NCBI GenBank assembly: GCA_963815195.1
Contig: CAWFGE010000005.1
Span: 1 to 64,000 of the forward strand
Length of the DNA: 64,000 nucleotides
Source of the DNA: an uncultured Planctomycetaceae bacterium
GTDB lineage: Bacteria; Planctomycetota; Planctomycetia; Planctomycetales; Planctomycetaceae
Direction of reading: 5' to 3'
The position numbers and the translations under genes are program-made. Of this stretch, positions 3,258 to 34,418 are shown one piece after another. The number at the start of each line of letters is the position of its first letter. Within the stretch, counting starts at the first letter, position 1. A model generated the notes under the pieces. The model saw only the letters and a list, made by a program, of their open reading frames with translations. It had not been told where the DNA came from and did not search any database.

Positions 3258-3451
3258 TGCCACGTTCCTGATTTCGTGGTTCCTGAATGAGAGAAGAAGC
3301 GCGGCGGGCCTCTCAGGTAAAGGTTTTCGGGCCGTCGCCCTAGCCGCGTTGAGGCCAACGATACCGCTTCCGGGCGCAACGTTCAACAAATGCTTCGCAT
3401 TTCGCTGGTCGGTTGGTTATGTTGGGGTTGTCCATATTTCCTGGAGAACCC

Positions 3452-29428: not shown

Positions 29429-29513
29429 TTTCCAATTCTAGCAGATTTCCCCTTTGGACAAACATTTCGAAAAATGAGTTCGGTGACTCGAGAGCCCGAA
29501 CGCTGCCCGAACG

Positions 29514-30158
29514 TTATTGGTTTTGATTTTGATTCCGCCGGCCGCGCTGCGGGAATTCGAACTTGTCGCCTTTCATCTTCTCGAAGTTTTCCTTCTGAGC
29601 GGGCGTCAAGACGGCGAGAAGCGCTGTTTCCGTTTTTTCCCGGCGCTCGCGGGCCTCGGCGAAATATTTTTGGCGCTCTTCCTGCGTTGCATTTTGGAAA
29701 TCGAGCCGCTCGGCCGGCTGATTGTCCGCGTCAATCTTCTTGATCTTTTCCTTTTGCGCATCGTCGAGACTCAATTTCTTGGCGACTTCCGGCCGGGTGA
29801 TCGCACTGGCTCCTTCGCGCTGCAGGCGCAACTCGGCGAGCCGTTTTTGCTGTTGTTCCGTCAGCACGCTCTTGACGGTTTCAGCCGTCTTCTTGGCCAA
29901 TTCCTCAATCCGCTTTTGCCGCTCTTCCTGGCTGAGATTCTGAAAGCTGCCCCGATCGGGACGCAGAGCCACCAGTTTCTCTTTTTGTTCGCTCGTCAGG
30001 TCCAATTCCTTCTGCACGGCCTCCATCTGCAAGAGCGCCGCATCGCCGCCGCGGCCAAACCCAAAACCCCGTCCTCCGCGCTGGCGCTGAGCCAGCGCCG
30101 TCGAACTGAACGAACTTAGCACCACCGCCGCCGCCATCGTTACGCAGAACCATTTCAT
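29514..30158 (-). CDS. Exported Spy/CpxP-like helical repeat protein
   Basis: Signal peptide, repeated LTxEQ motifs. Confidence 0.7.
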   Translation of the reverse strand: MKWFCVTMAAAVVLSSFSSTALAQRQRGGRGFGFGRGGDAALLQMEAVQKELDLTSEQKEKLVALRPDRGSFQNLSQEERQKRIEELAKKTAETVKSVLTEQQQKRLAELRLQREGASAITRPEVAKKLSLDDAQKEKIKKIDADNQPAERLDFQNATQEERQKYFAEARERREKTETALLAVLTPAQKENFEKMKGDKFEFPQRGRRNQNQNQ

Positions 30159-30370
30159 CAGCCGTCCCCTTTTTTGCGTGGACCCATTCGTTGCGAGCGC
30201 CGCACGACCATCGCGCGCCGTTATTGCCGGATTGAGCGGAATCGAAGCATCCGCCAGAATAACGCGCGGCGGGGGTGGGGTAAAGCACGCGGAAAGAAAC
30301 GCCTTGAGCATGAGGCGGGCGGGAAGAACTCGCGACGACGAGCGGCCGATTCGGGCGCGAGAGAAGCAAG

Positions 30371-30458
30371 CGGAAGGCATGGGATTCGAACCCACATCTC
30401 CGATGTCGGAGGCACGCATTAGCAGTGCGGCCCGGCCAACCCTATCCGGCTACCTTCC
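30371..30458 (-). tRNA. tRNA-Ser(GCT)
   Basis: CGCA-CT-GCT-AA-TGCG, long variable arm, GTTCGAATC. Confidence 0.9.
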
Positions 30459-30471
30459 AGTCTGTTTTCAA

Positions 30472-30547
30472 TCACCGAGGCGGGATTCGAACCCACAAAA
30501 ATCCCAGGTTCTCGGCCTCTTCGCGTTTCCAGTTTGCGTCCCCGGTC
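30472..30547 (-). tRNA. tRNA-Leu(GAG), degenerate
   Basis: AGG-CC-GAG-AA-CCT, GTTCGAATC; 1-72 mismatch and no U8. Confidence 0.6.
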
Positions 30548-30558
30548 AGAAGAAAAAG

Positions 30559-30627
30559 TAGCGGGTCCAGGGGTTGCACCCGGCGGGTGTGGCTTATGAG
30601 ACCTCACTGAGCACTGGCTCACCCGCG
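30559..30627 (-). tRNA. Compact tRNA with CAT anticodon (Met/Ile2), atypical
   Basis: CT-CAT-AA loop, minimal D-arm GAGC-CAGT-GCTC, T-loop TGCAAC, C1-U72 mismatch. Confidence 0.65.
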
Positions 30628-30702
30628 TCAAGTTTTTGAGTTTGCGCGTTTCGGCTTCACACGCTGAGAGGCTCTGTCAGAGCAAAAATTTGGGTTGAAA
30701 AA

Positions 30703-30765
30703 ATTAGCCGCAGGGGGGGCACCGCCCGCAGGGGGGCACCGCCCGCAGGGTGGTCCGCCCCGGTT
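30703..30765. repeat. REP-like family B copy with internal triplication
   Basis: ATTAG(CCGCAGGGGGGCACCGC)x~3 CCCGGTT. Confidence 0.65.
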
Positions 30766-30857
30766 TTCCTTGGGTTAGAGCGAGTCCGACCGAAAAGGTT
30801 CGCGCTCGCGCTTCGATTTCGTGGCGTGGAACGCTTGAGCCCTTTTCAACAATCGAG

Positions 30858-30938
30858 TGACCAAGGGGAGAGTTGAACTCCCACGCCCGAAGGCACGGCG
30901 TTCTGAGCGCCGCGTGTCTGCCATTCCACCACTTGGCC
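30858..30938 (-). tRNA. tRNA-Leu(CAG)
   Basis: CGGCG-CT-CAG-AA-CGCCG, variable arm, GTTCAACTC. Confidence 0.9.
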
Positions 30939-30946
30939 GAGAATAA

Positions 30947-31018
30947 TGACCCGTATGGGAATCGAACCCATGCCGCGAGATTGAGGGCCTCGCATCCTAG
31001 CCGCTAGAAGAACGGGCC
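30947..31018 (-). tRNA. tRNA-Glu(CTC)
   Basis: CGAGG-CC-CTC-AA-TCTCG, GTTCGATTC. Confidence 0.85.
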
Positions 31019-31058
31019 GAGTTGTTATCAGGATCAGCAATGACGGAGCGACGCGGAG

Positions 31059-31133
31059 TTGCGGGGGCAGGAATCGAACCTGCGGACGCGTGGTTCAAAG
31101 CCACGTATTTCTACCAGCAGAAACTACCCCGCA
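31059..31133 (-). tRNA. tRNA-Gln(TTG)
   Basis: CGTGG-CT-TTG-AA-CCACG, U1-A72. Confidence 0.88.
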
Positions 31134-31175
31134 TTCTGACTTCACACGCTGCTCGATTCGGCACGCCAATTTATT

Positions 31176-31277
31176 GAAATCCGAAGCACGAAATCCGAAA
31201 TCTCAAACAAATTGGGATTTGAAGATTTCCGAACATTGGAATTTGTTTCGGATTTTGGGATTCGGATTTCGGATTTT
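31176..31277. repeat. Heptamer-periodic inverted-repeat element
   Basis: (CGAAATC)-like units on the left, (GATTTCG)-like units on the right. Confidence 0.75.
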
Positions 31278-31320
31278 GCCGCACGGTGTTCGATGGACGA
31301 ATTCACGCCCGGTTTATGAG

Positions 31321-31392
31321 AGGGACGGGCGGGACTCGAACCCGTGCGCTGGTGCTTAACAGGCACCCGCTCTGCCGCTAAGCTACCGACCC
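31321..31392 (-). tRNA. tRNA-Asn(GTT)
   Basis: GGTGC-CT-GTT-AA-GCACC, GTTCGAGTC. Confidence 0.85.
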
Positions 31393-31423
31393 AAACAATT
31401 AAACTGTAAGTCGACAGTGGAGG

Positions 31424-31563
31424 GGGTGGCTGGGTGCAAAGGAATGTTCCAAGACAAAAGGAGATTTGAAGCCTGGGGCCGTGTGAGATTTTTCTCGCCC
31501 GGCCACAGCCCCAGCATTCGCAGTTCAAGCCTTATTCCAAGGGGATTTGCGCCCCAGCCACCC
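31424..31563 (-). ncRNA. Unidentified structured RNA within the tRNA array
   Basis: Terminal stem GGGTGGCTGGG/CCCAGCCACCC plus nested inner stems; strand inferred from the array. Confidence 0.55.
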
Positions 31564-31602
31564 AAACGCTTGGCGTTTGAGTCATCGTCCGTTGGCGAAA
31601 AG

Positions 31603-31677
31603 TTGCGGTGGCAGGAATCGAACCCGCGTCAAGACGGTTCAGAGCCGCCGGCCCGTACCAACACAGGCCCCACCGCA
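31603..31677 (-). tRNA. tRNA-Gln(CTG)
   Basis: GGCGG-CT-CTG-AA-CCGTC, U1-A72. Confidence 0.85.
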
Positions 31678-31681
31678 ATAG

Positions 31682-31753
31682 AGCACCCGGTGGGACTCGA
31701 ACCCACGTTGCCGCATTACGAGTGCGGTGTCCTCGCCGCTGGACGACAAGTGC
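31682..31753 (-). tRNA. tRNA-Thr(CGT)
   Basis: CCGCA-CT-CGT-AA-TGCGG, GTTCGAGTC. Confidence 0.88.
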
Positions 31754-31784
31754 CGGTTTTGGTGGAAAATCCATCCACCCGAAG

Positions 31785-31857
31785 CGCCTCGTAGGGGAAT
31801 CGAACCCCTGTCTGCGGATTGAAAGCCCGCTATCCTATGCCGTTAGAAGAACGAGGC
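31785..31857 (-). tRNA. tRNA-Glu(TTC)
   Basis: GCGGG-CT-TTC-AA-TCCGC, GTTCGATTC. Confidence 0.9.
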
Positions 31858-31875
31858 AAGTTGTCGAGTTTTGAG

Positions 31876-31947
31876 TGGGTTGAGAGGTGCTCGAACCCTC
31901 GTCTGCGGCTTTTCAGGCCGCCGCTTTACCGTCTAAGCTATCAACCC
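31876..31947 (-). tRNA. tRNA-Phe(GAA), first gene of the array
   Basis: GCGGC-CT-GAA-AA-GCCGC; slightly irregular T-arm. Confidence 0.85.
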
Positions 31948-31950
31948 AAT

Positions 31951-31980
31951 AAAAAGGCCCGATGCCAGATGACACCGGGC
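31951..31980 (-). terminator. Intrinsic terminator immediately upstream of the tRNA array (attenuator)
   Basis: GCCCGGTGTC-ATCT-GGCATCGGGC-C-TTTTT. Confidence 0.75.
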
Positions 31981-32011
31981 TGCGATGAGGATTCGCAAAA
32001 ATGCCAAAGTG

Positions 32012-32113
32012 TCACCGAACCCCAGCACCGTTCAGCCGCGGTTGGCCGCAAAACGGTGCGGGTTCTTGGCTTTCGAGCCGCGCTTCAGGTTGAAAGAATT
32101 GAAATCGCAACAT
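32012..32113 (-). CDS. Putative 33-aa leader peptide
   Basis: MLRFQFFQPEARLESQEPAPFCGQPRLNGAGVR*; the stop codon lies inside the antiterminator strand. Confidence 0.5.
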   Translation of the reverse strand: MLRFQFFQPEARLESQEPAPFCGQPRLNGAGVR

Positions 32114-32373
32114 GGGATTTGGTTTGAGTGAGAGATCGTTGTGGGTTGCTGGTGTTTTAGACGCCCTTGGCCGGGGGAGGTTCGCGCCCGTTTGCGTTTT
32201 TCTGTACGTTGGCCGGGTCGGAGATTTTCAGCGTTTTCAAGTTTCGGATGAGTTTTCGAGCCGGGCTCCCACGGGAAGCGAACCGCCCCGCGACCGCCGC
32301 GCTAGTTCTTCGCGGGGCATTGATTTACCATGCGCTTCAGCCAATGCAATCCCATCAATCCAAGGGCATTCTC

Positions 32374-34418
32374 ATGCGATGGTTATTTTGTTCGTTGAGT
32401 GTTTTGCTCGCCGGGCCTGTTTTGGGCGATGATTTGACGGTGCTGGAAAAGCCCCGGCCGCAGATGCTGCGGGATGTGCTCCGGGTCCAGGTGCATCAAG
32501 CGCTCGCTGCGAGACGGGCGGCTTATGAAGGTCGCACCGAGCCCGCGGCGATCCCCGAATGGCAGCGAGACTTGCGGGCCAGGTTCGTGGAAAGTCTCGG
32601 CGGATACCCCGAGCGCACGCCGCTCAAACCCCAAATCGTCGGGCGGTTCGAGTCCGATGGCTACCGCGTGGAGAAGCTCATTTATGAAAGCCGGCCCGAG
32701 TTTCACGTGACGGCCACGCTCTATCTGCCCAACGCGAAGCCGCCCTGTCCGGCGGTGCTCTTGCCCTGTGGCCATACGGAAAACGGCAAGGCCGCCGGGA
32801 CCTATCAGCGCGTGGCCATTCTGCTGGCGAAGAACGGGATCGCGGTGCTGTGTTACGACCCCGTCGGCCAGGGCGAACGAAAGCAAATTCTCAAAACCAA
32901 CAAAGCCGGCGAGCCTCTCGCCGCCGGGCAATTTTCATCGACCAGCGAGCATTCCATCACGGGAGTCGCACCGATTCTCTTGGGGCAGTGCCTGGCGAGC
33001 TATCGTATCTGGGACGGCATCCGGAGCATCGATTATCTTTGCTCCCGGCCGGATATTGATGCGAAGCGCATCGGCTGCACGGGGAACTCCGGCGGCGGTT
33101 TAATGACGAGCTATCTGGCCGCGCTCGATGAGCGGATCCAGGCCGCGGCCCCAGGGTGTTTCATCACCACGACCCGCATCAAAAACGAACGGCCCGGCCC
33201 CGGCGATGCGGAGCAGAACATCTTCGCCCAGACCGCCTATGGTTTGGACCACGCGGATTATCTGATGCTCGCCGCCCCGCGTCCGGTGCTGATTTGCTCC
33301 GCCACCGAGGATTTCGTGCCCGTCGAAGGCGCGTGGAATTCCTTCCGCCAGGCCAAGCGGCTCTACACGCGGTTGGGCGTTCCGGAACGGGTCGACCTGG
33401 TCGAGGCCGATGAAAAGCACGGCTTCTCGAAGCCACTCCGCCTCGCCGTCCTCCAATGGATGAGGCGGTGGCTGCTCAATGTCGATGAACCCGCGGACGA
33501 ACAAGAGTTCGAGGTGCATACCGAACAGCAACTCACATGCACGCCCCGCGGGCAGGTACTTCTGCTCAAGGGCGCGAAATCCCTCAACGATCTGTACCGC
33601 GAACAGGCGCGGGAACTGAAGAGCCAGCGCGAGAAGTGGAACCGGGAAATTCCCGCCGCGGCGCGGATCGCCAAGATTTGCGAACTCATCCGCGCCAAGG
33701 GTTGGGATCAGCTTCCGCCGCCCAAGGCCCGCACCGCCGGAAGGCTCGACCGCAACAGTTGCCAAATCGAAAAACTGATTCTCGCACCCGCCGAGGGCAT
33801 CGTTCTGCCCGCTTTGTTATTCGAACCTCCGGACGCGGGGAATAAGATCGTGTTGTATGTTCACGGTGAGGGAAAACACGCTGATGCGCAGGTGGGGGGC
33901 AGAATTGAACAGCTCGATGAAAAAAGGCCGGAGGGTGTTCGCGGTCGACCTGAGGGGTTACGGCGAAACCGAATCTCCCGCCTGGCGGTTCAACAAGACC
34001 TACATGGGCACGAATGCCGCGGAGTATTTCATCTCGTATATGCTGGGGCGATCGCTGGTCGGCGCGGGCGGAGGATGTTCTTTCCGCCGCCAAGTATTTG
34101 AAGCAGCGGTTTCCGAATGCCGACCTGGAACTCGTTGCGGTGAGCCGGGCCGGAATACCGGCTCTGCATGCGGCCGCGATTTCGCCGAATGCCTTTGTGG
34201 CGGTGCATCTCGATCAAACGCTGGACTCCTGGAGCCGCGTGATCGAAACTCCTGTCACAATCGACCAATTGGAAAACACCGTCCACGGCGCACTGCGGTT
34301 TTTCGACTTGCCGGATCTCGTGGACCTCGCGGGCCCCGGCAAGGTGACGATCACGAATCCTCAGGACGCCGCCGGCCAGCCCATTCGGTCCGAGCCGGCG
34401 GAAGCGTCGCAGCGATAA
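32374..34418 (+). CDS. Acetylxylan esterase-like alpha/beta hydrolase (frameshifts near 33915 and 34066)
   Basis: Signal peptide, PCGH, DPVGQGER, GNSGGG nucleophile, DLRGYGET in the second frame. Confidence 0.85.

What the first reader, a model, noticed from the sequence alone, without database searches (positions are those of the whole stretch)
31948..32113. Leader-peptide attenuator gating the tRNA array (candidate translation-stress switch)
Seen: a 10-bp terminator with U5 ends 3 nt before the first tRNA. Upstream, a 33-codon ORF ends in CGG-TGA-CAC, and GGUGACAC (32016-32009) is complementary to GUGUCAUC in the terminator 5' arm and loop. A further hairpin, TGCGA..TCGCA (31981-31997), lies between them. 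A ribosome reaching the stop would mask the antiterminator, whereas earlier stalling would allow read-through. The peptide has 4 Phe, 4 Gln (all CAA) and 3 Glu (all GAA), matching three of the first four tRNAs. Known: this is classical attenuator logic, and the cryptic tRNA operon of Anabaena PCC 7120 is induced by translation inhibitors. Inference: a ribosome-sensing attenuator that releases backup tRNAs and an ncRNA; I know of no description of this arrangement.
Basis: partly seen in the sequence, partly recalled or inferred. Interest (0 to 1): 0.85.

Follow-up and report, generated by a model that had tools for sequence, protein, structure and literature searches.

The report
Leader-peptide switch gating spare tRNA genes
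A tiny translated reading frame and a stop/go RNA switch sit in front of a block of spare tRNA genes, here and in about half of the related planctomycete genomes searched, so these tRNAs are probably made only when ribosomes falter.

Summary
A 10-pair terminator with a T5 run ends 3 nt before tRNA-Phe. A 33-codon uORF ends CGG-TGA-CAC, and that stop region is complementary to the terminator's 5' arm.

The element is not a one-off. The same cassette precedes tRNA arrays in 56 analysed instances from public genomes. It consists of a GAACC-N16/17-CGTCTA promoter, a 30-44 codon uORF (some 63-69), a TGA stop inside an antiterminator strand, and an intrinsic terminator. A covariance model finds it in 73 of 151 genomes of the window's family, including a second copy in this genome.

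The uORF frame is open in 56/56 instances, against 29/56 and 23/56 for the other frames. The stop-region:terminator-arm pairing appears in 55/56 nascent folds, against 13/71 controls, and shows compensatory changes. A further helix (early uORF codons with the stop region) covaries and completes a trp-like 1:2 / 2:3 / 3:4 layout.

My reading is a ribosome-mediated transcription attenuator that opens the arrays when ribosomes stall in the uORF (about 0.7). The Phe/Gln/Glu codon match is not conserved, so sensing looks general. The window's copy is divergent: it has no SD-like motif, its region 1 is unclear, and its free-RNA fold favours the antiterminator. No expression data were available. I found no description in the literature searched. 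Earlier notes from this scan report analogous switches before phage tRNA arrays.

The parts
32157..32183 (-). Promoter-like box: GAACC (32183..32179), 16-nt spacer counted from GAAC, CGTCTAA (32163..32157). The expected transcription start is a few nt downstream, near 32150 (inferred).
   Evidence: The sequence is. The same box (consensus yGyGAACC(T/A)TTT-N-GCGTCT(T/A)A, spacer 16 or 17) was found by regex at about -200 to -250 from the hairpin in 40 of 56 leaders. It also stands before all three tRNA arrays of this genome. That it resembles ECF-sigma promoters is recalled, not tested.
32115..32123 (-). Candidate segment 1 of the window's subtype: ACCAAATCC just 5' of the start codon, predicted to pair with GGGTTCGGT (32022..32014).
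   Evidence: This comes from an RNAalifold consensus of the window with its two same-genus orthologues. There are 8 pairs, two of them with changes on both sides, but only 3 sequences, so the support is weak.
32012..32113 (-). Leader ORF (uORF): ATG at 32113, 33 codons, TGA at 32014..32012.
   Evidence: Across the leaders, the frame upstream of the TGA is open for at least 30 codons in 56/56, against 29/56 and 23/56 in the other two frames. An in-frame ATG lies at -165..-115 in 47/56, against 1/56 and 0/56. Lengths differ by whole codons. Codon-position entropy is 1.39/1.28/1.51. There is no SD-like motif in the window's copy.
32009..32026 (-). Segment 2, the antiterminator 5' strand: GCTGGGGTTCGGTGACAC, containing the stop codon.
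Evidence: In 55/56 leaders the nascent-RNA MFE pairs the stop region with the terminator 5' arm (at least 7 pairs), against 13/71 unrelated hairpins. The window is the one exception by that register.
31981..31997 (-). Spacer hairpin TGCGA-ATCCTCA-TCGCA between segments 2 and 3.
   Evidence: It is present. Its energy is -4.3 kcal/mol against a shuffled mean of -2.1 (p about 0.1). Across the family, 36/56 spacers fold at -3 kcal/mol or better, and only 2/56 beat 95% of shuffles.
31957..31980 (-). Segments 3 and 4: the intrinsic terminator stem-loop (5' arm 31980..31971, loop ATCT, 3' arm 31966..31957).
   Evidence: It is the RNAalifold consensus of 55 leaders, and the two outer pairs, which lie outside the search pattern, covary (AU:35/GC:12 and GC:43/AU:8).
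31951..31955 (-). T5 run of the terminator, followed by ATT and then tRNA-Phe.
   Evidence: Leaders found without requiring a T-run (L005, L006, L007 through tRNA-Phe similarity) also carry one.
30370..31947 (-). The gated tRNA array: Phe-GAA, Glu-TTC, Thr-CGT, Gln-CTG, Asn-GTT, Gln-TTG, Glu-CTC, Leu-CAG, Ser-GCT.
   Evidence: ARAGORN finds all 9. Rfam's tRNA model reaches its gathering score for 7 of the 9. Every anticodon has at least one further copy elsewhere in the genome. The five array tRNAs compared are 59-72% identical to the stand-alone isoacceptors.

Best explanation
This is a ribosome-mediated (leader-peptide) transcription attenuator that gates a redundant tRNA array.

Proposed mechanism:
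1. Transcription starts at a GAACC-N16-CGTCTAA promoter about 200 nt upstream of tRNA-Phe.
2. The leader RNA carries a 33-codon uORF whose UGA stop lies inside segment 2.
3. Segment 2 can pair with segment 3, the 5' arm of the terminator. That forms an antiterminator.
4. Segment 2 can instead pair with an upstream segment 1. In most family members segment 1 is codons 3-9 of the uORF. In the window's subtype it is probably the 9 nt before the AUG.

Expected outcomes:
- If a ribosome runs unhindered to the stop codon, its footprint covers segment 2. Segments 3 and 4 then form the terminator, and RNA polymerase stops at the U-run 3 nt before tRNA-Phe.
- If no ribosome loads, 1:2 and 3:4 form, and transcription also stops. 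For the window's own copy this is uncertain.
- If a ribosome stalls or lags inside the uORF, segment 1 is masked or unwound while segment 2 stays free. Then 2:3 forms first and polymerase reads into the nine tRNA genes.

The peptides carry no run of one codon, so the switch most likely reports general elongation trouble, such as tRNA shortage or damage, starvation or translation inhibitors, and answers with a second set of tRNAs.

Shown: the sequence elements, their conservation, the open frame, the alternative pairings and their covariation, and the exclusive link with tRNA arrays.
Inferred: translation of the uORF, termination at the U-run, the direction of the response and the signal.
For: Anatomy in the window.

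Conservation:
- Orthologous and paralogous arrays in relatives share the layout.
- A second copy lies in this genome at C8:352909-353018.
- 56 instances from a pattern scan and relatives were analysed.
- The covariance model R1 matches 73 of 151 genomes of the family, in 54 of 92 genera, often with 2-5 copies.

uORF:
- Frame 0 is open for at least 30 codons in 56/56, against 29/56 and 23/56 for the other frames.
- An in-frame ATG is present in 47/56, against 1/56 and 0/56. The instances fall into 32 clusters below 70% identity.
- The stop is TGA in 56/56, and again in 28/28 model-derived hits.
- Length variants differ by whole codons.
- Third codon positions vary most. A conserved Gly codon has entropies 0.31/0.37/1.71.

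Antiterminator (2:3):
- It is present in 55/56 nascent folds against 13/71 controls.
- 89.8% of cells pair, against 18-45% when the partner columns are slid.
- Of 65 instances scored, eight (L007, L012, L064, L083, L136, L137, L138, L162) carry a changed Watson-Crick pair, and 40 single changes go to G-U wobble. L183 and L188 show further examples by my reading of the sequences.

Helix 1:2:
- 70.3% of cells pair, against 32-39% when slid.
- 61 cells change on both sides, against 30+-5 in shuffles (0/500 reach the observed value).
- Its position shifts with uORF length.

Folding with masks:
- Free leaders fold to the terminator in 43/47 and show 1:2 pairing in 42/47.
- Leaders with the stop region masked fold to the terminator in 47/47.

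Link to tRNAs:
- tRNAs follow within 700 nt in 51 of 53 assessable pattern-derived leaders.
- tRNAs follow in 26 of 26 assessable model-derived leaders.
- The third array of this genome has the same promoter directly before its tRNAs and no leader, which marks the leader as an inserted control module.
Against: - No expression data exist for this locus, so translation, termination and read-through are all unobserved.
- The window's copy is a divergent member (49.9 bits against 77.5 for the C8 copy). It has no SD-like motif.
- Its nascent MFE uses a different antiterminator register from the rest of the family.
- Its segment 1 rests on three sequences.
- Its free full-leader MFE is the antiterminator, one of 4 such cases among 47.
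- With the first 15 codons masked, equilibrium folding still gives the terminator in 36/47. The stall-to-read-through step therefore depends on co-transcriptional kinetics, which I did not model.
- SD-like motifs are only modestly enriched (14/47 against 4-5/47 in control windows).
- Duplex energies for 1:2 are not better than shuffles on their own (median z -1.06).
- The pattern used to collect most instances fixed the terminator arms and the T-run, which limits observable covariation and makes those features circular for that set.
- Related sequences inflate the shuffle statistics.
- Two leaders (L023, L086) have no tRNA within 1500 nt.
Confidence: 0.7

Rival explanations
1. A peptide-specific arrest sensor. 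The conserved C-terminal residues (consensus ...P-L-R-L) and the invariant UGA would make the ribosome pause at termination or at a defined codon, in response to a particular small molecule, release factor 2 level or antibiotic. This would resemble TnaC- or Erm-type leaders rather than a report of general elongation speed.
For: Some residues are conserved at the amino-acid level with free third positions: Gly column 0.31/0.37/1.71 and Arg column 0.45/0.72/1.43. The stop is TGA in 56/56 and 28/28, and is followed by C in 51 of 56. There is no run of any single codon.
Against: Much of the apparent peptide conservation coincides with RNA helices. The SSL codons are segment 1, and LRL plus the stop are segment 2. 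The window's subtype keeps the frame but not the peptide, sharing only PF(C/A)GQP with its orthologues. A ribosome held at the stop would mask segment 2 and favour termination, so this would tune the switch rather than replace it.
Confidence: 0.12
2. A small-protein gene with its own terminator that merely lies upstream of the array. The tRNAs would be made by leaky read-through or from another promoter, and the peptide would be the functional product.
For: The ORF is conserved and partly conserved in sequence. A strong terminator follows it. Two leaders occur without tRNAs downstream.
Against: - The stop codon is embedded in a strand that pairs with the terminator arm in 55/56, with compensatory changes.
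- A further competing helix covaries.
- In the window only 3 nt separate the T-run from the tRNA, and no sigma-70-like promoter was found on this strand in 29500-33500.
- The peptide matches no Pfam or NCBIfam family and varies freely between orthologues.
- tRNAs follow in 51/53 and 26/26 assessable cases.
Confidence: 0.08
3. A structured non-coding leader, for example a protein-, tRNA- or ligand-binding riboswitch-like element or a processing signal, in which the open frame is incidental.
For: The leader has several conserved helices. SD-like motifs are weak or absent, and none is present in the window.
Against: The frame-specific openness and the start codon (56/56 and 47/56, against 23-29/56 and 0-1/56 in other frames), the whole-codon length changes and the codon-position pattern are not expected of a non-coding RNA. 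No Rfam family, T-box included, matches at E up to 10.
Confidence: 0.05
4. The window's copy is a decaying relic of the family that no longer regulates anything. Either it terminates constitutively or it is always open.
For: It is a low-scoring member, lacks an SD-like motif, has an atypical antiterminator register, and its free-RNA MFE is the antiterminator. Rfam's tRNA model misses two of the nine array tRNAs. A truncated leader exists in a relative (L011).
Against: The frame, the TGA, the terminator and the promoter are all intact. They are shared with two same-genus orthologues at 75-89% identity, including an in-frame 9-nt length difference.
Confidence: 0.05

Closest known systems
trp/his/pheA-type leader-peptide transcription attenuators of Proteobacteria (trpL, hisL, pheL). 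I saw abstracts only for PMC1183508 and PMC3082878. The mechanism as stated is textbook knowledge, recalled.
   Same: A short translated leader ORF. Four RNA segments with mutually exclusive 1:2, 2:3 and 3:4 pairings. An intrinsic terminator before the regulated genes. A stop codon placed so that a terminating ribosome blocks the antiterminator.
   Different: There is no run of regulatory codons. The regulated genes are tRNAs, not amino-acid biosynthesis enzymes. The leader is 30-44 codons, longer than trpL (14 aa per the abstract of 10.1101/606483). The promoter is of a different type. The family is confined, as far as searched, to Planctomycetota.
whiB7 5' leader of mycobacteria (uORF-mediated antitermination). 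PMC10274678, abstract read.
   Same: [quoted passage not shown] That makes it a general translation-stress sensor, which is the logic proposed here.
   Different: It controls a transcription factor gene, not tRNAs. Its uORF is enriched for alanine, whereas no such enrichment for one residue is seen here beyond Ser, Leu and Arg. There is no sequence relation and the phylum is different.
Antibiotic-responsive uORF attenuators of Firmicutes (vmlR, PMC9226507; bmrCD, PMC4191407). Listings and abstract starts only.
   Same: Ribosome-mediated transcription attenuation in a leader that carries a uORF and an intrinsic terminator.
   Different: They gate resistance proteins. No antibiotic link is known or tested here.
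Anabaena sp. PCC 7120 trn operon (long tRNA array). PMC8421152, passages read. PMC10272220, title and abstract start from the listing, plus a word search of the text.
   Same: A redundant tRNA array that is silent in normal growth and induced when translation is impaired. This is the same physiological idea.
   Different: [quoted passage not shown] The title and abstract of PMC10272220 name the repressor TrcR. The words attenuat, terminator, leader and uORF have 0 occurrences in both papers. Here control would follow initiation, through a leader peptide.
Leader-ORF plus terminator cassettes before phage tRNA arrays, noted earlier in this scan (e1-5725793, e1-6107749, e1-5824790, e1-5749140). 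These are unchecked AI notes.
   Same: A short ORF, a terminator and a competing pairing directly upstream of a tRNA block. I saw one such case myself on a 357-kb viral contig (L199).
   Different: Those are phage elements with other promoters and ORFs of 31-50 codons. Homology to the planctomycete family is not shown (L199 scores 31.5 bits with R1).

Membership tests
Leader-peptide (ribosome-mediated) transcription attenuator | A short ORF in the leader that is translated | tested here: inconclusive
   The comparative signature of coding is strong: frame open in 56/56 against 23-29/56, ATG in 47/56 against 0-1/56, whole-codon indels, and entropy 1.39/1.28/1.51. Translation itself is not observable here. 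SD-like motifs occur in only 14/47 and not in the window.
Leader-peptide (ribosome-mediated) transcription attenuator | An intrinsic terminator between the leader ORF and the regulated genes | tested here: met
   A 10-pair stem plus T5 run ends 3 nt before tRNA-Phe. It is the consensus structure of 55 leaders, with covarying outer pairs.
Leader-peptide (ribosome-mediated) transcription attenuator | An antiterminator that uses the terminator's 5' arm and would be blocked by a ribosome at the end of the ORF | tested here: met
   Present in 55/56 nascent folds against 13/71 controls. 89.8% of cells pair against 18-45% slid. Compensatory changes are seen. In the window two alternative registers both lie within about 15 nt of the stop.
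Leader-peptide (ribosome-mediated) transcription attenuator | An anti-antiterminator (segment 1 pairing with segment 2) | tested here: met
   Met for the family: helix 1:2 pairs in 70.3% of cells against 32-39% slid, and both-side changes number 61 against 30+-5. For the window's own subtype the evidence is a 3-sequence consensus, and the free-RNA fold does not show it.
Leader-peptide (ribosome-mediated) transcription attenuator | A cluster of regulatory codons for the amino acid of the regulated pathway | tested here: not met
   No single residue is clustered. The F/Q/E richness of the window's peptide is not shared (F at least 3 in 8/47, E at least 3 in 2/47). This lowers membership in the amino-acid-specific class, not the mechanism.
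Leader-peptide (ribosome-mediated) transcription attenuator | Read-through changes with ribosome progress | not testable with these tools
   This needs Term-seq, reporters or in vitro coupled assays, and no RNA data could be used.
whiB7-type general translation-stress uORF attenuator | A uORF plus Rho-independent terminator in the 5' leader, induced by many kinds of translation stress | tested here: inconclusive
   The architecture is met (see above). Induction is untestable. The feature list is taken from the abstract of PMC10274678.
whiB7-type general translation-stress uORF attenuator | Lies upstream of a whiB7/wblC gene in Actinobacteria | tested here: not met
   tRNA genes lie downstream, and the related records are titled Planctomycetota.
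TrcR-controlled tRNA operon (Anabaena type) | [quoted passage not shown] | not tested
   No repeat search was made at the promoter. The promoter box here is GAACC-N16-CGTCTAA, and no sigma-70-like site was found on this strand.
Any Rfam family (including T-box leader) | A match to a curated covariance model | tested here: not met
   There is no family at gathering score in the leader. Only chance-level matches appear at E up to 10 in the window's leader and in the C8 copy.

The most novel reading that the evidence does not exclude
Planctomycetes of this family run a translation-surveillance circuit. A dedicated alternative-sigma-type promoter, found in this genome only at its three tRNA arrays, together with a four-segment leader-peptide attenuator, releases a complete second, foreign-looking set of tRNAs only when ribosomes stall. 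That could happen after attack on the housekeeping tRNAs by anticodon nucleases, or under translation inhibitors. Phages carry the analogous switch before their own tRNA blocks, so the cassette may be a shared and possibly exchanged tRNA emergency module. The roughly 200-nt terminated leader could additionally act as a small RNA.
Probability: 0.3. Interest if true: 0.9.

Novelty: new variant of a known kind. Interest (0 to 1): 0.78.

Why it matters
Bacterial tRNA arrays are common, but what they are for remains an open question in the survey and Anabaena papers I consulted. The only regulatory mechanism I found in the searched literature is the Anabaena repressor.

A leader-peptide attenuator in front of tRNA genes would link tRNA supply directly to ribosome performance. 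That feedback loop has, to my knowledge and in the searched library, not been described for tRNA genes.

The family is large: 73 of 151 genomes of one family, with several copies per genome. It also carries natural sequence variation in all four segments. That makes the hypothesis directly testable in cultivable Pirellulaceae-like strains and gives a ready alignment for a new RNA/leader family.

It also gives a handle on transcription-translation coupling and promoter types in a phylum where, to my knowledge, both are poorly studied.

Tried and rejected
- RNA evidence: the look-up of sequencing runs for window:31500-32400 listed no RNA holder.
- Earlier notes at this place: none.
- Promoter regulon: a strict promoter regex in the own genome gave 22 hits. 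Only the arrays (C5 and C12, plus the C8 variant seen by eye) looked genuine. The three other GCGTCT hits I inspected (C7:205938, C7:211761, C10:357313) lie in GC-rich, apparently coding sequence, and their downstream ORFs do not look like sigma factors by eye. No family scan was run on them. No candidate sigma factor was identified.
- Phylum-wide model search: 23 of 151 genomes had a hit at E<=0.001. Of the 29 hits I examined, only the nine in genomes of the window's own family or genus (G043, G109, G134, G157, G002, G003) were followed by tRNAs. The other 20 lacked downstream tRNAs, and many were terminator-only partial matches. Presence outside the family therefore rests on record titles from the pattern scan (Schlesneria, Planctomyces, Thermoguttaceae, Kuenenia). 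MAG labels can be wrong.
- Energy statistics for helix 1:2 (duplex energy against shuffles) were not significant on their own. Position and covariation carried the argument.
- Spacer hairpin: not significant.
- Codon-matching idea: rejected as a family trait.
- Pfam and NCBIfam scans of four leader peptides: nothing.
- RNAalifold on the uORF region of 32 majority-type leaders returned only the 1:2 helix, not the internal hairpins I thought I saw by eye. I make no claim for those.
- One search failed on an out-of-range coordinate and was repeated correctly.
- Literature searches for a described attenuator before tRNA arrays found none. The library lacks most subscription journals, and I did not open supplements.
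Full report
1. What is in the window

On the minus strand, nine tRNA genes run from 31947 down to 30370: Phe-GAA, Glu-TTC, Thr-CGT, Gln-CTG, Asn-GTT, Gln-TTG, Glu-CTC, Leu-CAG and Ser-GCT.

The next gene upstream points the other way. It is an alpha/beta-hydrolase ORF on the plus strand (Pfam Peptidase_S9/AXE1). By my reading, its likely ATG is at 32374 with a signal-peptide-like start. So 31948-32373 is a divergent intergenic region, and whatever transcribes the array must start inside it.

These are the 10-pair terminator 31980..31957 with T5 at 31955..31951, three nt before tRNA-Phe. There is also the 33-codon uORF 32113..32012 ending CGG-TGA-CAC, the complementarity of GGTGACAC (32016..32009) to GTGTCATC in the terminator arm and loop, and the small hairpin at 31997..31981.

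2. It is one member of a large family

A blastn search of 40 relatives found arrays starting with tRNA-Phe in several genomes. Reading their upstream regions side by side showed the same order of parts in three same-genus genomes, another genus and another family:
- a GAACC...CGTCTA box;
- about 45-90 nt further, an ATG-initiated ORF of 30-34 codons ending in TGA;
- about 35 nt further, a hairpin CCCGGTGTCA...GACAyCGGG followed by a T-run.

The window's own genome holds 97 tRNA genes. These include three arrays: 9 on C5, 13 on C8 and 22 on C12. The C8 array has a second, better-scoring copy of the whole cassette. The C12 array has the promoter box about 20 nt before its first tRNA and no leader.

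After orientation and tRNA calling:
- 50 instances, counting the window, the C8 copy and five loci from the relatives search, were followed by a tRNA within 500 nt. The records for nearly all the public ones are titled as Planctomycetota.
- The other 78 hits were ordinary terminators in many phyla, and these served as controls.

A covariance model built from 55 leaders (R1) matched 73 of 151 genomes sampled from the window's family. That is 59 of 120 high-quality genomes and 54 of 92 genera, at E<=1e-6, often with several copies per genome.

In a phylum-wide sample of 150 genomes, 23 of 151 (counting the window's genome) had a hit at E<=0.001. Among the 29 hits I examined from that search and from loci fetched earlier, only nine were followed by tRNAs, and all nine lie in genomes of the window's family or genus. 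The other 20 had none, and many were terminator-only partial matches.

Rfam has no model for the leader.

3. The ORF is under selection to stay open

In 56 analysed leaders the stop is always TGA, 28-42 nt before the hairpin.

| Measure | Frame 0 | Frame +1 | Frame +2 |
|---|---|---|---|
| Open for at least 30 codons upstream of the anchor | 56/56 | 29/56 | 23/56 |
| ATG at -165..-115 in the open stretch | 47/56 | 1/56 | 0/56 |

- The uORF bodies fall into 32 clusters below 70% identity.
- Lengths of 30-44 codons, and 63-69 in long forms, all keep the frame.
- The window differs from its two orthologues by an in-frame 9-nt length change.
- In a peptide-guided codon alignment, entropy is lowest at second positions and highest at third positions (1.39/1.28/1.51). 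A conserved Gly codon has an almost free third base.
- A replicate set of 28 model-derived hits from other genomes, some of them the same species as earlier loci, again gave TGA in 28/28.
- SD-like words upstream of the ATG are only modestly enriched (14/47 against 4-5/47), and the window has none.

4. Three competing helices

(a) Terminator (3:4). This is the RNAalifold consensus. The two outer pairs lie outside the search pattern and covary.

(b) Antiterminator (2:3).
- I folded the RNA from 12 nt before the stop up to just before the terminator's 3' arm. This gives at least 7 pairs between the stop region and the terminator's 5' arm in 55/56 leaders, against 13/71 control hairpins.
- On the alignment, 89.8% of cells pair, against 18-45% with slid partners.
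- The search pattern froze the arm, so variation is limited. Where either side varies, it mostly stays paired: 40 changes to wobble, plus changed Watson-Crick pairs in L007, L012, L064, L083, L136/L137, L138 and L162. By my reading of the sequences, L183 and L188 add two more.

(c) Anti-antiterminator (1:2).
- Before segment 3 exists, the stop region is predicted to pair with codons 3-9 of the uORF. The partner position moves with uORF length.
- On a 45-leader alignment this helix pairs in 70.3% of cells, against 32-39% slid. It has 61 both-side changes against 30+-5 in shuffles (0 of 500 reach it). Pairs such as AU:15/GC:11 show the covariation.
- Relatedness inflates such numbers, but the slid controls keep relatedness.

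Whole-leader MFE folds:
- Free RNA gives the terminator in 43/47 and 1:2 pairing in 42/47.
- RNA with the stop region masked gives the terminator in 47/47.
- With the first 15 codons masked, the equilibrium fold is the antiterminator in only 11/47. The stall response therefore has to be kinetic: 2:3 can form before segment 4 is made.

5. The window's own copy

It belongs to a divergent subtype shared with two same-genus genomes.
- Its peptide shares only PF(C/A)GQP with theirs.
Both lie within the footprint expected for a ribosome at the UGA. The footprint size is taken from general knowledge.
- A 3-sequence consensus pairs ACCAAATCC (32123..32115, just before the AUG) with GGGTTCGGT (32022..32014).
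- Its free full-length MFE is the antiterminator.

So the no-translation state of this particular copy is uncertain, and it may be leakier than typical members.

6. What it probably senses

In addition, the Gln-CTG tRNA (fourth in the array) does not match CAA by its anticodon. The peptides are enriched in Ser, Leu and Arg, but part of that reflects the RNA helices.

I therefore favour a general sensor of elongation, as proposed for the whiB7 leader (PMC10274678, abstract).

All nine array anticodons are duplicated elsewhere in the genome. The five array tRNAs I compared are only 59-72% identical to the stand-alone ones. This fits a separate spare set. One paper describes such clusters in planctomycetes as degenerate and horizontally acquired (PMC4807772, passage).

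7. Known or new

In the passages I read of PMC8421152, the Anabaena array is controlled through promoter repeats. The title and abstract of PMC10272220 attribute control to the repressor TrcR. Neither text contains the words attenuat, terminator, leader or uORF.

The tRNA-array survey PMC4758250 mentions Planctomycetes once and gives no regulator in the passages I saw.

Seven full-text searches found no description of a leader-peptide attenuator before tRNA genes. The library omits most subscription journals.

Earlier notes from this scan report similar cassettes before phage tRNA arrays. I saw one on a 357-kb viral contig: a 41-codon ORF ending TGA 33 nt before the hairpin, with eight tRNAs after it.

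The mechanism is of a known kind. Its target, its breadth in one bacterial family and its pairing with an array-specific promoter are new, as far as I could check.

8. Verdict

- Confidence that this is a conserved leader-ORF/terminator cassette dedicated to tRNA arrays is about 0.95.
- Confidence that it works as a ribosome-mediated attenuator opening on stalls is about 0.7.
- No expression data exist, so the function remains inferred.

Noticed in passing
window 32157-32183 (-); own genome C8 near 353100 (-) and C12:573172-573198 (+): A GAACC-N16/17-CGTCTA box precedes all three tRNA arrays of this genome. With a strict regex, the only convincing sites in the genome are at the arrays. It looks like an alternative (ECF-type) sigma promoter, a resemblance I recall rather than tested. 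No sigma gene was identified.
   Followed up: partly
own genome C12:573209-575422 and C8:349717-352883: Together with the window's array, 44 of the genome's 97 tRNA genes sit in three arrays, forming a near-complete second set. The arrays include anticodons not seen among the stand-alone genes, such as Ile-TAT and Arg-GCG.
   Followed up: partly
window 30370-31947 (-): The five array tRNAs compared are only 59-72% identical to the stand-alone isoacceptors. Rfam's tRNA model misses two of the nine (Gln-CTG at 31602-31677 and Ser-GCT at 30370-30458). Gaps of 180-400 nt inside the array (31134-31319, 31393-31601, 30459-30856) were not examined.
   Followed up: no
L199:1046-1227 (IMG/VR contig of 357 kb): A viral contig carries a similar cassette: a 41-codon ORF ending TGA 33 nt before a CCCGGTGTCA...CACCGGG-T7 hairpin, then eight tRNA genes. 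An upstream GTAAC...CGTAT box resembles the planctomycete promoter. R1 scores it 31.5 bits.
   Followed up: partly
L011:1380-1503 (G001:C15): This is a decayed leader. The promoter box and the first codons of the uORF are present, with a premature TAG, but the rest of the uORF and the terminator are missing. tRNA-Phe follows directly.
   Followed up: no
L023 and L086: Two leaders have no tRNA within 1500 nt downstream. Unrelated ORFs follow instead (PQQ/BamB-like beta-propeller; HEAT repeats). They may be orphans left after loss of an array.
   Followed up: partly
L012:1378-1485 (G003:C9): This leader copy lies inside an array, with a tRNA-Arg upstream on the same strand. Some arrays may therefore have an internal gate.
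   Followed up: no
L031, L038, L062, L080, L085, L118, L133: Long-form leaders of 63-69 codons keep the same C-terminal end and stop context. L038 looks as if a first stop had been lost and a second unit added.
   Followed up: no
window 3282-3350 (-): Rfam int-alpA RNA match (41.8 bits, gathering score 35.8). It hints at an integrase or mobile element about 28 kb from the array.
   Followed up: no
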